Shown in pieces: positions 3,001-24,000 of a DNA stretch of 64,000 bases; within the stretch, counting starts at the first letter, position 1, and every line of letters starts with the position of its first letter. Origin of the DNA: Convolutriloba macropyga (taxonomy: Eukaryota); assembly GCF_964194025.1 (NCBI RefSeq), contig NC_134471.1, positions 11,284,001 through 11,348,000 of the forward strand, read 5' to 3'. Position numbers: made by a program.

Positions 3001-6000
3001 ACTCTTATAGCGAAAAACCTAAACTGCATAAATGGGAAAAATATTAACTGGGGAATTAAAGTTTTGTTAATTTCGATAAAAAGTTGACCACTCCACTGAT
3101 GTTCTCATTAAGGGTCGAATGCTGCCAGCCGAATCGTTTATCTCAAAACTTAGCCTAATGAAGCTACAAACAGATATATGACACTGGGAAACAGCAGAAA
3201 ATTTTGAAATGTTTACTAGTCGCGATAACACTAGACAGAACAAGAGAACAAAAATTATTATAAAAAAGAAAACGAAGTGTAGTAACAAATCTTTAATCTG
3301 GAGAAGCGTTCAAAAATGGAACAAATGCCCTCTTCAATACGGACTTTTAACAGTAAAATTTTCTTTAAAAATGTTTTAACCGAGTGTTTGCTCGATCAAC
3401 ACAAGAAAGTACCCGTTAATAGACAAATTGGAGCCTTCAAATCCTATTTTTACCTATAAGAACGAACAGTCACAATTTGAAGCTTATTATATTAATAACA
3501 ATACTGATTAATTTATTTAACACTTCAAAGCATGTAGATATCTAACCTGAGGGTTATATTCTGTGTAATTTATATGTTTTTAAAAATGTAGTTTATTAGT
3601 GGAATTTTTTTCTATGACCCCCAAGCGCGCGTGCTTTTCTTGCCTGGTAACGTGCTGTATAACAAAACTAAAGTTCTAATTGTGGTGTCGGCCTACTTAA
3701 CCATAATAGCTGGTGTTTGGATAGCGTCTTTTCCAACATTGGATCTTTTCAATTTGTGCACCCCAGTACGTTATGAACCCGCCAGGTATCGAGCACGTGC
3801 AATTAGATAGTAAATCGTTCTAAAATATGGGACGTGTGTCTTGGTGATGCATATAATATTCACCCACTAAACTGGGAGGGGCGGGCACAAATGGAAAAGG
3901 CTCATTCAATGTATTGATGTAATCTGTTGCTGATGTAAATGATTTTAATAGCTGGGATAGATGAGCGAGGCTATTGTTGGCCTTCTATTGGCGTATTTTT
4001 ACGTTTCCAAGTGTTTGGATTTTATTGGGGATTACACAAATTTATCGGAAATTTGAAAGTACCAATGATCACGACGCTCATCAGGCAAACCATTAGCAAT
4101 TGAAGCAATTAAAATCTCTGTGCTTTCGTATCATCTAAAAGGTAAGTTTATGGGGTTTGGCAGATGATCGAATGCATATTGTTTCTAAGCTAGATGAATG
4201 TGAAAGCACCTTTCATCCCTAAAGTACGTTCCTAAACAGACCTTGAAGTCTGTCCGAGTGATGCAAATAATATTCACCCACTGTACTGGGAGGGGCGGGC
4301 ACAAACGGAAAACCCTCCCAACAGTCAATGTATTGTTGTAATCACTGACTTGATAATCTTTCAGAAGTGATGTCAACTGAGCAACTGAACACATTAAACT
4401 TAAAGGGGTCAACGGAAATAATTTGCGAACTATTGTGTGAGTGCAGTTTCATGACTTTTTTGTAGACTGTAATTTAGGATGCAGAAATCGAGGCTGAAAT
4501 TTAGCCGACATAGAGTATAAGTAAACCTTAATGGGATCTTTTCCGTTTGTGCCCCCCCCCCCCAGCTTAGTAGGTGCTTATTATTTCCACCCCCCCCCCC
4601 CCCGACGCACGTGCCTTATTTTTACATTTTGATTTAACATGTAATAACACGTGCTCTGTAACTTGGAAGGGGGGCACAAACGGAAAAGATGTTTGTCATA
4701 GCTTTAAAGCAAATAACTTTTCTGTTACAGATTACTGCGTGCACAACATAACATATTTGCGAGGCGTTTTCCATAGCAGTCTCTACGAGTATGAGGAAAA
4801 ATGGGATCAAAAGGTGTTCGTATGTCAGCAAAAACAAATGCGAGAGTATGTATCAAAAATGATAGACGGCTTTCGTGACTGGATGTTGAAAAAGAAAGCA
4901 GAGAGAATTGTGCTGGTGCTTTGTGATGCAGTAACAGACGAAAGATTTGAAAGATGGCAATTTGATTTGAAATTAGACGATGAAAATATTGCGCCTGATG
5001 CGTTAGTATATCCGCATTTATCACTCTGTGGAGCATAGTAGAGAGAAAGAGCAGTTTTTACAGAAACTTCTTTTGTCATTTAAGCGATTATTTTTTCGAA
5101 TCTTACATCATTTACTATATCTAAAATGATATTTGTTGTGCAGTTCAGACTTGCTTGAGGACAGCAACAGTACTTCTTGATAAAGAGGTGCGACGCCTCT
5201 AAAGCTGCGATTTGATTTCAAATTAATGGTGCACTTCTCGGTGCATAAATTTGAAAAGCTCAGCATTCAGGTAATTGCGAACACGATTGATTTTTTGGGG
5301 TTCCCTTTCTAACCACTTTTGAACTTTGAAACAAGAGTTTAGCAGTGGAGGGCTATTATGAGCGTGAACATGCAGTTATTAGTTGACAATCTGGTGGTGA
5401 TGATCTTGTTGATCCTTTGTTAATGATTTTTAATAGCTGGGGTAAACGAGTAGAGCTATTGTTGGCCTTCTATAGGCCTTTTTACAATTGCGAGGATTTG
5501 GATTTTTATTGGGGAGCTGTTTTCAAGATTTTTTAAATCTGTCAATGAGGAGTCACATTAGAATGGTGATTTTGGCCACGCTAGAGTAGTAAAGGGAGAT
5601 CACAAGCAACTAATTGAAGCGTGAAAAATGTACTGATTTTAGACGTCAATGGGAAGTTAATGGTTTCTAACTTTTATGTTATGCGTTTTTAAAGATATTA
5701 GAAAATTTTTGAGCTTTGCTCGAATTTGTTGTTCTCTTTGTTCTATCACTTATGACAGCTTCCTTTTGGTTTTTATGACTTACAGCACACTACTTGAGCA
5801 GCTTTGACTCAGGATTAGAAGCAAGCTCTAATATCGGCTTGGTTCCTTAAGTTGAAACTACAGACCATTGAGCTGTTTTTTTCGAAAGTAACGTAAAGTT
5901 TGATCAAAAATGTAATTCTAAATCTTATGAGCGAAAATAATATGTTTGCTGCCGAGCAGTTTGACTTTAGACAAGCGGGATCAACAGCCTTGCCATTACT

Positions 6001-21000: not shown

Positions 21001-24000
21001 AGGTCAGATTGGACACTCATGTAGAAGAATTCGTTTCGATTGGTATGACCAAATTATGCTGCTTGTCCAATGAGTGATATAACAAAAAATTGTTGACATT
21101 GTCGATTTGTTAAGGAGGATTACCTCCCTCACAGAAACCTACGTGTTATCATTTGAGAACCTGAATTTTTGAGTTTCCTCAGTACTTTTTCTTTTCGATG
21201 TTTTAATGCTTACGCTCAATAATTACCGGTATTATCATTAATGAAAAGTATCCTCGGATTTATAGAGAGAGAGATAAATGATTATATAAAATTTCTGTTT
21301 CTAAGGCTTCTTAATAACACTTTCCGTTCGTTTGCTCTTTAAAATAGTCAACTGTTCATTCATTCATTCATTCGTGACGCTACTCAGGGAGTTGACTTTT
21401 GTACGTAGCGTTGTTTCCCCTCTAATAGGATCTGATATGAGTTCCCTTTAAAGCGGGCAAAATAGTCGAATGCGTAGAAAGTACGGATCTTCTGAGGTCA
21501 TTACGTCATTATTGACAATAATTGCACGGGAACTTTTTTCCAATATTGCTTTTTGATATATTGTAATCTTGCAGTGCTTTTGATTGAAAATTTTGGGCAG
21601 ATCATAGTGGTGGAACTGCCTCCCTCCGTTGAAATATAATAATCCTTTATAGAAAGTTTTACACTTTCATAATCGTATGGGGTATCAATGGCCAGTCACC
21701 TATTAGACTTTTTAAATTATAAGTGAAAAGAACACTCGCTTTATTTTTATCCACGGAAAGGAAACATTAGCAGTTGCATTTAATAATAATAATAATAAAT
21801 TGTTCATTTTCTGTTATCGACCAACACAAAAGAAGTTTATTTACTGTGCACAAAAAATATGTACAATGAAGTTCAACAGAAAAAAGAGAAGACCATTAGA
21901 TCATCAGTTGATCCGTTTTCAGGTGCCTCACAATGTAGGAATATCAAAGAACTGTTGATTACGAACTGAAAGAAAATTACTATAGTAATTCAACTATAAA
22001 TCATGAATGGTTAATTTGGTTCAATTATTTAAGCCCTTGACTGTAGTTCCAAATATTTTGAAAACAGATTAGCTGAAAACTAGTAAAATTTAAAGTTACT
22101 AATATAACTGTCTGAGTTTACAATTGTGAGTTTACAAAATCAATTAGACGTAAAAAATGTGTAAAGGTAACCAATTATAAAAAGAGCGTTCAAGAGGATA
22201 AAAATGTAGCCGGAGACCCAGACGAAATTCCCCATTTTTCCATATTCCGGGTATATCCGCACCATTAACATTCCAGGCAAGCCAAGGGTCGAAAAGGAAG
22301 CCAAGATTCCAGCCAGAACAAAAACTTGCGTCATGCCCTGGGCGAAAAGCATGCATAACAATGTAGCAGTAAAATAGATTGTTTTTATGGTGAAGTATTT
22401 TCCAAATGGAATTCTAGAAGCTTCCTCGTCCTTTGTGCTTTTTGTGAAAATTGTGTCTTCGACTACTTTGCACCCTACGAAGCACAACACAGGGTACGAA
22501 GATACGACAGAGGTCATAATGCATACTCGAGCTATGATAGCCATTGGGTCTTTGGTGTCGTAGCTGTTCAGAAAGTCCTCATCTACACTCTGGCCGAAGG
22601 TCAAAAGGACGAAAGCTGCCAATATGGTGTAGATGATGTAGCTTCCGATGTTGGAGACCACTGAGACTATGAACCAGTTAGAAGAGTTGCGGACTTTGAG
22701 GTCACTGAAACAAAGTTTGTTGCAATTGTTTTGGTTTTTGTCTGACCCATTTGATCTTTTGAGCGTTATTTTTTTGCGCGTAACTTGAGTTTTGCGTGAT
22801 CTACATTGCTAGCATTCACTATTTTTTCATTATCGATTTATCATTATAAGAACTCGAATTTTCTAGAATATTGATAATTTTAGCATCCAATTATTTATAG
22901 CAATCCAATTAATAAACTTGAAATTTAATGAGATAAACCAAGCAATTCTTTTTTGCAGGGCTTGAATTATGGCCTTTATAAAGAAGCTAGGAGCAGTCTT
23001 TGAATGCAAGTGAAACAGTATATCAATATTTTGTGTACCTGTAGATAGCGGGAGCTGAGTAAAAGCTCTGAAACTCAAATATGACAACGGCAGCAAATCC
23101 CACAAATGCTTGAAAGGTCCAGTCCGATTCGAAAACCATTTCCGGCTTCTCGTGATCTTTCAGCTGCCAGTAGTGCTGAACTGTGAAAATGAGAACGTAG
23201 AAATTGGCGAAGAAACTGGCCACACTGGGATAGTAGAGGAAGTTGACACTTCTTGGAATGCAGAGAGGGTAGATTGTTATAATACACGAAGCTGCAGCTA
23301 TCACCTATATAATAAAAATGTAATGAAATTTGTAACATTTTCGTGAAAAACATTTTAACTCAGCGCCTATGAAGATTCTTTATGGAGCTTATTACTGATT
23401 TTTGATTGTGAGCTATCCTGTGAGCGGTTTTAGCAATGTGCTATTTAATAGATCTCTGAAATTTGCCTGCTTCCGTTTCTTTCTCTCAAATTAAAGTGAT
23501 CTTGAAGTACTATTGAGTATTGATCTATTAAGCATTTAGAATAGCAATCATACAATTATATTTGCACTTAATCGAAAAATTGCTTCCCTTTTTTGCGTGA
23601 AATGTAGACAACGTATAATAATGCTCTCAAAGTTGGGATCCTTAGAACGTCGACGATACTGATCAAAGAGAGACTGGCGCAAACCTTATTCCACAGATCC
23701 AAATGAGCTGAAGACATTTCCTCGAAACTGATGAACCACTTGATCAAAGTGACAGATTGATCCTTGACGACCATCATGTAGCTGATGCAAGTTGAGAATG
23801 TGTAACACAGGAGGATGACGTCAATCACTTTCTTAGTTCTGTAGCCAAATAGAACCAGCACTATATCTTGGAATGTGATCTTCTGCGTGATCTCAATCGC
23901 TTTACCAAGGACCATTAAGATGACGATGCCTAAAAACGTATCAAAATGTACAAGTGTAGCAAAAAAATAGTTGATACTTAAAACGTTCTAAGTTCTGGCC

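What the first reader, a model, noticed from the sequence alone, without database searches (positions are those of the whole stretch)
5617..21103. 15.5-kb macrosatellite made from an already dead CR1 retrotransposon
Seen: 12 head-to-tail units of 1271-1299 bp share the same lesions (TAG in place of Q in the PQG motif, no FADD motif, internal deletion before the C-terminal region). There are no poly-A tails or TSDs between units, and LINE-like 3' sequence seems to continue only after the last unit. Inference: amplification happened at the DNA level (unequal exchange or rolling circle) after decay, not by retrotransposition. This looks like a satellite being born from a LINE, and could act as a piRNA/siRNA source or heterochromatin seed beside an intact transporter gene.
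Basis: partly seen in the sequence, partly recalled or inferred. Interest (0 to 1): 0.65.

Follow-up and report, generated by a model that had tools for sequence, protein, structure and literature searches.

The report
Tandem array of dead LINE fragments
A 15.5-kb stretch consists of twelve head-to-tail copies of the same broken piece of a LINE retrotransposon gene, which is a real but ordinary example of repeated "satellite-like" DNA arising from a dead mobile element.

Summary
Window 5617-21103 is exactly 12 head-to-tail units of 1271-1299 bp, 94.5-99.9% identical to each other, mean 96.0%. Every unit is the RT-to-C-terminus part of a non-LTR (LINE) ORF2 on the + strand (tblastn E 1e-15 to 1e-22 per unit). 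All units start at the same base, variation is spread evenly along the unit, and shared variants sit mostly in neighbouring units. This fits DNA-level duplication and unequal exchange of an already dead, 5'-truncated copy.

Some claims are not supported or not testable here:
- The label "CR1" could not be tested.
- The claim that LINE 3' sequence continues after the last unit found no support.
- The absence of poly-A or TSDs is a weak argument for this type of LINE.
- There is no evidence for a small-RNA or heterochromatin role. CpG content equals that of the flanks.

LINE- and CR1-derived tandem repeats are already described (PMC9659126, PMC5932611). This is a new member of a known kind, of low to moderate interest.

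The parts
5617..21103 (+). Whole tandem array: 12.0 head-to-tail units of a broken LINE ORF2 remnant (sense strand +)
5617..6906 (+). Unit 1 (1290 bp), broken ORF2 remnant
6907..8205 (+). Unit 2 (1299 bp), broken ORF2 remnant
8206..9496 (+). Unit 3 (1291 bp), broken ORF2 remnant
9497..10778 (+). Unit 4 (1282 bp), broken ORF2 remnant; shares an indel with unit 5
10779..12049 (+). Unit 5 (1271 bp), broken ORF2 remnant
12050..13347 (+). Unit 6 (1298 bp), broken ORF2 remnant
13348..14635 (+). Unit 7 (1288 bp), broken ORF2 remnant; 99.9% identical to unit 8
14636..15923 (+). Unit 8 (1288 bp), broken ORF2 remnant; 99.9% identical to unit 7
15924..17218 (+). Unit 9 (1295 bp), broken ORF2 remnant
17219..18516 (+). 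Unit 10 (1298 bp), broken ORF2 remnant
18517..19805 (+). Unit 11 (1289 bp), broken ORF2 remnant
19806..21103 (+). Unit 12 (1298 bp), broken ORF2 remnant; last unit, ends in phase with the others
5156..5616 (.). Upstream flank between repeat R2 and the array. No detectable ORF2 homology. Holds a 98-nt piece (5418-5515) like the starts of R1/R2
21104..22142 (.). Downstream flank up to the end of the transporter gene. No ORF2 homology. 21164-21212 is weakly like unit offsets 89-136 (marginal)
22158..26884 (-). Neighbour: amino-acid transporter gene (Pfam Aa_trans). Four exon matches at 26884-26723, 23924-23613, 23289-23029 and 22709-22158, with no stops. Its 3' end faces the array about 1 kb away
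1228..3378 (+). Neighbour: second, separate 5'-truncated LINE ORF2 remnant. No DNA similarity to the units
3936..5155 (+). Neighbour: repeat R2, 91.6% identical to R1 at 1-1174. It contains a MAD2-like HORMA piece (4574-5035) and a 113-nt LINE-like piece (4025-4131)

Best explanation
A single, 5'-truncated and already inactivated copy of an APE-type non-LTR retrotransposon lay in the intergenic space between a MAD2-like gene fragment and the 3' end of an amino-acid transporter gene. The copy held the ORF2 part from just before the RT domain to the C-terminus, with one large internal deletion. It was duplicated in place at the DNA level. The resulting tandem was then expanded, and is still being reshuffled, by out-of-register exchange or replication slippage between units, giving 12 units of about 1.29 kb.

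Shown: the array, its LINE origin, the shared lesions, the identical unit boundaries, and local sharing of variants. Inferred: the order of events (decay first, amplification second) and the exchange mechanism.

The array has no coding capacity and shows no sign of sequence constraint. Its most likely 'function' is none: a neutral, locally amplified, satellite-like repeat.
For: - The array is exactly 12.0 units, and the first unit starts at the same base as the other 11.
- Every unit matches LINE ORF2 relatives that carry endonuclease plus RT domains (for the Pfam domains; for E 1e-15 to 1e-22). One such relative, P0006, matches LINE-1 ORF2p and R2 in the PDB.
- By a frameshift-aware alignment to 3 relatives, each unit has 3-7 in-frame stops, 4-11 frameshifts, 1-3 small insertions, 3-8 deletions, and one large deletion of about 91 residues. 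Two to four stop columns are shared by all 12 units.
- The same stop codon occurs in 12 of 12 units, and the catalytic motif is present in 0 of 12.
- Mean pairwise identity is 96.0%, and units 7 and 8 are 99.9% identical.
- 139 of 201 simple variable columns are singletons.
- Non-singleton variants group mostly neighbouring units: (7,8) 18 columns, (4,5) 8, (7,8,9) 3, (9,10) 3.
- Variation is even along the unit (chi-square p = 0.55), and transitions:transversions are 102:99. Both fit neutral decay.
- No open stretch longer than 97 codons exists in the array, and 0 of 13 open pieces reach a Pfam family at E <= 0.01.
Against: - The unit coincides almost exactly with the recognisable LINE remnant. 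Homology starts within about 95 nt of the unit start and ends about 65-100 nt before the unit end. Neither flank shows LINE ORF2 homology. A duplication with random break points would not be expected to frame the element so neatly. This hints at a mechanism tied to the element's own ends.
- There is no microhomology at the outer junctions.
- The single-copy ancestor, copy number in reads, and other loci of the genome could not be examined. Shared lesions could also be spread by later homogenisation.
Confidence: 0.7

Rival explanations
1. Retrotransposition-made dimer. Two insertions of the same LINE family landed tail-to-head at one site, giving a 'tail-to-internal' tandem. Unequal exchange then expanded the dimer.
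For: Most non-LTR tandem junctions in Drosophila join an intact 3' end to a 5'-truncated start and are ascribed to double insertion (PMC5932611, passages read). Here the junction joins a point about 65-100 nt after the last ORF2-homologous codon to an internal ORF2 point. The flanks show no LINE homology.
Against: - The first unit starts at exactly the same base as all the others. Two independent 5' truncations at the same base are unlikely, and expansion of a dimer keeps the first element's own 5' end.
- All units carry the same inactivating lesions, so both insertions would have had to copy the same dead template.
- No target-site repeat is seen around the array or in the junctions.
Confidence: 0.12
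2. Circle-mediated origin. The LINE fragment was excised as, or copied into, a circular DNA. It was multiplied by rolling-circle replication, and the multimer was integrated here.
For: The pattern among units is largely star-like, with 139 of 201 variable columns singletons. The unit frames the LINE remnant closely, with non-LINE flanks. Rolling circle is a proposed route for TE tandems (PMC5932611, passages; PMC3411249, passages).
Against: - Exactly 12.0 units with adjoining phases at the two ends is what in-place duplication gives. A linear concatemer with random ends would rarely do so.
- Shared variants cluster in neighbours, and one pair is 99.9% identical. This shows stepwise local events, at least afterwards.
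- There is no direct evidence of circles.
Confidence: 0.1
3. Assembly artefact. The true locus holds fewer units, and the assembler inflated a repeat.
For: Arrays of about 1.3-kb units at 96% identity are hard for some assemblers. Units 7 and 8 differ at about one site.
Against: 10 of the 12 units are each at most 97.5% identical to every other unit; units 7 and 8 are 99.9% identical to each other. The array holds 139 singleton variants and several private indels, which is not what a collapsed or re-used repeat looks like.
Confidence: 0.05
4. Functional array. The repeat serves as a small-RNA source or a heterochromatin or methylation seed affecting the neighbouring genes.
For: There is only the general precedent that TE-derived tandem repeats can be transcribed. 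The LINE sense strand converges on the transporter gene, about 1 kb from that gene's 3' end.
Against: - CpG o/e of the array (0.88) equals that of the flanks (0.81-0.85). Only 22 of 102 transitions lie in CpG context, so there is no footprint of heavy germline methylation.
- No sub-region of the unit is conserved above the rest.
- There are no Rfam hits and no significant RNA structure at the junctions.
Confidence: 0.05

Closest known systems
Chicken HinfI tandem repeat containing a CR1 element (Li and Leung 2006, seen only as cited in passages and the table of review PMC9659126)
   Same: It is a tandem repeat whose unit contains part of ORF2 and 3' sequence of a CR1-type LINE. That makes it a LINE coding remnant turned into a tandem repeat.
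   Different: It comes from a different organism and element. I did not read the primary paper, so unit size, copy number and junctions were not compared. Here the CR1 label itself is unverified.
LINE-1 ORF2-derived satellites (PROsat of Phodopus, Pvc20 of harbour seal) and the L1 3'-end-derived common cetacean satellite (review PMC9659126, passages and table)
   Same: They are satellite monomers derived from the ORF2 or 3' part of a LINE and amplified as DNA.
   Different: Those are abundant, multi-locus satellites. Here only one 12-unit locus is known, and the unit is nearly a whole truncated insertion.
Tail-to-internal tandems of non-LTR retrotransposons in Drosophila melanogaster and their expansion by unequal exchange (PMC5932611, passages)
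   Same: The junction lies between a near-3'-end point and an internal ORF2 point. Expansion to more than 10 copies from a small tandem is documented there (for hobo).
   Different: There the dimers are ascribed to double insertion, with distinct 5' truncations. Here the first unit has the same 5' end as all the others, and all units share inactivating lesions.

Membership tests
Non-LTR (LINE) retrotransposon ORF2 remnant, APE+RT type | Sequence homology to the LINE reverse transcriptase and the ORF2 C-terminal region | tested here: met
   Each of the 12 units is hit by 19-21 of 22 relatives, with best E 3.8e-15 to 5.1e-22. Profile positions from about 505-516 to about 890-930 of 937 are covered. 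The relatives carry PF00078 with PF03372/PF14529. One of them, P0006, matches LINE-1 ORF2p and R2 in the PDB.
Non-LTR (LINE) retrotransposon ORF2 remnant, APE+RT type | Endonuclease domain and an intact RT active site (an autonomous element) | tested here: not met
   The units start after the endonuclease part of the relatives. The catalytic motif is present in 0 of 12 units. Each unit has 3-7 stops and 4-11 frameshifts. It is a dead fragment, not an element.
CR1 clade of LINEs | RT phylogeny placing the element with named CR1 references | not testable with these tools
No curated TE library is on hand. The C-terminal signature that made me think of CR1/L2-type elements is a recollection, not a test.
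CR1 clade of LINEs | A 3' end with a specific stem-loop or short repeats instead of poly-A | tested here: inconclusive
   There is no A run longer than 6 at unit ends. Folding of the unit end and of the array's downstream edge is not better than shuffles (z from -1.59 to +0.54). The family's true 3' end is unknown.
TE-derived satellite / macrosatellite | Head-to-tail array of many copies of a unit of more than 1 kb, with identical boundaries, derived from a TE | tested here: met
   12 units of 1271-1299 bp with the same start and end, of LINE origin.
TE-derived satellite / macrosatellite | Abundance at several loci, or copy-number variation among individuals | not testable with these tools
   No eukaryotic genome or read collection is available. 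In the window itself there is no further copy. Only two 107-nt stretches in R1/R2 (113-114 alignment columns) are 76-80% alike.
Double-insertion (tail-to-internal) LINE tandem | The first element keeps its own, different 5' truncation. The junction holds the intact 3' end and/or a target-site copy | tested here: not met
   The first unit starts at the same base as the other 11. There is no repeat of flanking sequence at the junctions or ends. Whether the 3' end is intact could not be judged.

The most novel reading that the evidence does not exclude
The unit frames the truncated LINE remnant to within about 100 nt at both ends, and neither flank is LINE-like. The array may therefore have been seeded not by a random segmental duplication but by a process that uses the element's own ends. 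Examples are concatenation of copies of a dead element's transcript during reverse transcription by a related active LINE, or circularisation of the fragment. That would make this a young, euchromatic, gene-adjacent stage of satellite birth from a LINE.
Probability: 0.1. Interest if true: 0.5.

Novelty: new member of a known kind. Interest (0 to 1): 0.25.

Why it matters
It is a clean, fully resolved example of an early stage in the turning of a dead retrotransposon into tandem repeat DNA. It has 12 units, about 4% diverged, one nearly identical pair showing ongoing turnover, and it sits in gene-bearing DNA about 1 kb from an apparently intact gene. Such loci are useful for dating and modelling unequal exchange, and as likely sites of copy-number variation. 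It does not change what is known about how satellites arise.

Tried and rejected
- Pfam on 13 stop-free pieces from the array found no family at E <= 0.01. There was only a DUF6633 match at E 0.083, below cut-off. A first attempt with long translated stretches was not accepted because of stop codons.
- The word-based protein search with an 83-residue unit piece found nothing.
- The exhaustive representative search with an 81-residue unit piece gave only 5 hits. One (P0001) was a spurious bacterial repeat protein. P0005 from that list led to the full-length relatives.
- A degenerate 13th unit after the array is marginal. 21164-21212 resembles unit offsets 89-136, and 1-8 of 300 shuffles score as well. 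The upstream flank shows no such remnant (170-299 of 300 shuffles as good).
- A 3' stem-loop after the array is not significant.
- The idea that the block [R + LINE] was duplicated as a whole is rejected. R1 and R2 are 91.6% identical, but the LINE after R1 has no DNA similarity to the units (best E 0.16).
- The idea that the array lies in an intron of a MAD2-like gene has no support. No second half of a HORMA domain appears in 0 of 40 and 0 of 128 + strand pieces.
- Rfam and tRNA scans gave 0 hits.
Copies elsewhere therefore stay unchecked.
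Full report
1. Is it there?
Yes. The repeat finder reports 12 copies in register with spacings of 1271-1300 bp. A 16-mer offset count in 4-24 kb peaks at 1288, 1298 and 1290. blastn with one unit tiles 5617-21103 without interruption at 94.1-96.4% identity. Anchoring on the first 150 nt of the array gives the unit starts 5617, 6907, 8206, 9497, 10779, 12050, 13348, 14636, 15924, 17219, 18517 and 19806. The unit lengths are 1271-1299 bp.

The array is exactly 12.0 units. 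It starts at unit phase 1 and ends at the last phase. TRF missed it only because its longest period is 500. The window contains no N. Nothing suggests human origin: GC is 35%, an ANAPC2 gene has exons of 400 codons or more, and CpG o/e is about 0.86.

2. What are the units?
Single open pieces of the units are too short for Pfam (0 of 13 at E <= 0.01). A word-based protein search found nothing. An exhaustive search with an 81-residue piece gave five hits. Four of them (P0002-P0005) are C-terminal pieces of reverse-transcriptase-bearing proteins, and one is spurious.

P0005 led to 21 long relatives of about 620-1370 residues. All 21 carry RVT_1, and 16 of them also carry an endonuclease domain (Exo_endo_phos_2, nine of these with PF03372 as well). 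The relative I tested, P0006, matches LINE-1 ORF2p and R2 proteins in the PDB over the RT.

tblastn of these 22 proteins hits every unit on the + strand. Between 19 and 21 of 22 proteins hit each unit, with best single-HSP E of 3.8e-15 to 5.1e-22. Against a profile of 12 full-length relatives (937 positions), the units cover positions from about 505-516 to about 890-930. So each unit is the ORF2 part from just before the RT domain to within 5-12 residues of the relatives' C-terminus. With one relative (P0016), homology reaches to about 95 nt from the unit start. About 65-100 nt follow the last homologous codon.

3. How broken is it?
I used a frameshift-aware alignment of my own, reporting scores, counts and outer bounds only, against three relatives. 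Each unit has:
- 3-7 in-frame stops;
- 4-11 frameshifts (this number depends on the penalty and is probably on the high side);
- 1-3 small insertions;
- 3-8 deletions, including one large deletion of about 91 residues (77-98) in 12 of 12 units.

Two to four stop columns are common to all 12 units. The catalytic-centre motif found in 12 of 12 relatives is found in 0 of 12 units.

4. Relations among units.
The MAFFT alignment has 1307 columns. Of these, 1023 are invariant and 74 have a gap. Pairwise identity is 94.5-99.9%, mean 96.0%, and units 7 and 8 are 99.9% identical.

Of 201 simple variable columns, 139 are singletons. Transitions and transversions are 102 and 99, and 22 transitions lie in CpG context.

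Non-singleton variants mostly join neighbours: (7,8) 11 substitution and 7 indel columns, (4,5) 8 indel columns, (7,8,9) 3, (9,10) 3, (1,2) 2, (11,12) 2. There are also (10,12) 6 and (2,10) 3. Mean identity falls from 96.6% for adjacent units to 95.6% at distance 7.

Variable sites are spread evenly along the unit (chi-square 10.8, 12 df, p = 0.55). This is the picture of an early burst followed by neutral decay, with occasional local duplication or conversion.

5. Edges and flanks.
No unit ends in an A run longer than 6. The 40 nt before and the 40 nt after the array share no word longer than 5 nt, and 708 of 1000 shuffles do as well.

None of the 22 proteins gives a hit in 3000-5616 or after 21103. 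The profile finds nothing in 3332-5616 and only stray matches after 21103, from 36459 on, at E 0.85-9.6. An untranslated tail cannot be recognised without other copies of the family.

The small hairpin just after the array is not better than shuffles (z -0.47 and -1.59). A weak likeness of 21164-21212 to unit offsets 89-136 is marginal (1-8 of 300 shuffles).

6. Surroundings.
Upstream lie two 1.2-kb direct copies, R1 (1-1174) and R2 (3936-5155), 91.6% identical. R2 carries a MAD2-like HORMA piece. No second half of that domain was found.

Between R1 and R2 lies a second, separate 5'-truncated LINE remnant at about 1228-3378 on the + strand. It has 8-10 stops and 9-14 frameshifts, and no DNA similarity to the units.

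Downstream, on the minus strand, is an Aa_trans transporter gene. Four exon matches to P0027 cover residues 1-416 of 419, with no stops. Its 3' end is about 1 kb from the array. I compared the exons one by one and left out the joined step, so the reading frame across the splice sites is unchecked. The array is thus intergenic, between convergent features.

7. Mechanism.
The best explanation is in-place DNA-level duplication of an already dead, 5'-truncated, internally deleted LINE remnant, followed by unequal exchange or slippage.

The strongest single argument is that the first unit begins at the same base as the other eleven. A dimer made by two retrotranspositions would keep the first element's own truncation point (model in PMC5932611, passages).

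The shared lesions show that the template was dead. By themselves they would not exclude mobilisation in trans.

The absence of poly-A is a weak argument. Many non-L1 LINEs, the CR1 clade included, are of the type recognised by a specific 3' end (PMC3747384, passages). That such LINEs do not end in poly-A is my recollection.

One thing stays unexplained: the unit frames the recognisable LINE remnant so closely.

8. Function.
I find no evidence for any. No piece is conserved above the rest. CpG o/e is 0.88 in the array against 0.81-0.85 around it. There are no Rfam hits. The small-RNA or heterochromatin idea remains a guess that needs expression and chromatin data.

9. Comparison and novelty.
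Tandem repeats derived from LINE coding or 3' parts are described. Examples are a chicken tandem repeat holding part of CR1 ORF2 and its 3' UTR, ORF2-derived PROsat and Pvc20, and the cetacean common satellite. I saw these in passages and the table of PMC9659126 and did not read the primary papers. General statements are in PMC12628747 (passages). TE tandems and their expansion are analysed in PMC5932611 (passages).

This locus is a new member of that kind. Whether copies exist elsewhere in this genome stays unchecked. I asked for no supplementary files.

Noticed in passing
window 1-1174 and 3936-5155: Two direct copies (R1, R2) are 91.6% identical and 3.9 kb apart. R1 starts at the window edge, so the duplication may extend further left. 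R2 holds an open 154-codon stretch (4574-5035, +) with a MAD2-like HORMA match (Pfam E 3e-7; PDB MAD2 E 5e-11) covering only the first half of the domain. The R1 copy gives no HORMA hit.
   Followed up: partly
window about 1228-3378 (+): A second 5'-truncated LINE ORF2 remnant lies between R1 and R2 (RVT_1 at 1915-2589; profile E 1e-38). It has 8-10 stops and 9-14 frameshifts, and no DNA similarity to the array units.
   Followed up: partly
window 90-196, 4025-4131 and 5418-5515: Short old repeat pieces. A 107-nt stretch in R1 and in R2 (113-114 alignment columns) is 76-80% like unit offsets of about 701-813. A 98-nt stretch, 100 nt upstream of the array, is 77-80% like the starts of R1/R2.
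   Followed up: partly
window 22158-26884 (-): Amino-acid transporter gene (Aa_trans). Four exon matches to P0027 at 60-74% identity, with no stops. The first intron of about 2.8 kb holds a repeat (25438-25943) that recurs at 38259-39308.
   Followed up: partly
window 40726-41733 (-) and 42854-49057 (+): A 336-codon open stretch with DUF4419 (E 1.7e-24). An ANAPC2 gene with two large exons (TPR_ANAPC2, Cullin and ANAPC2 domains).
   Followed up: no
window 51414-52471 and 53645-53981: Tandem arrays of a 124-128-nt unit (8.4 and 2.6 copies, 76-83% matches).
   Followed up: no
window 55975-64000: A very AT-rich (17% GC) 165-167-nt satellite lies at 57151-59690 and, in inverted orientation, at 59910-62861. 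It sits inside a large inverted repeat (55975-58748 against 61236-64000, 92.8% identity), that is, a palindromic satellite block running to the window's end.
   Followed up: no
whole window: CpG observed/expected is 0.81-0.88 everywhere, so there is little CpG depletion. No Rfam family and no tRNA gene occurs in the 64 kb.
   Followed up: yes
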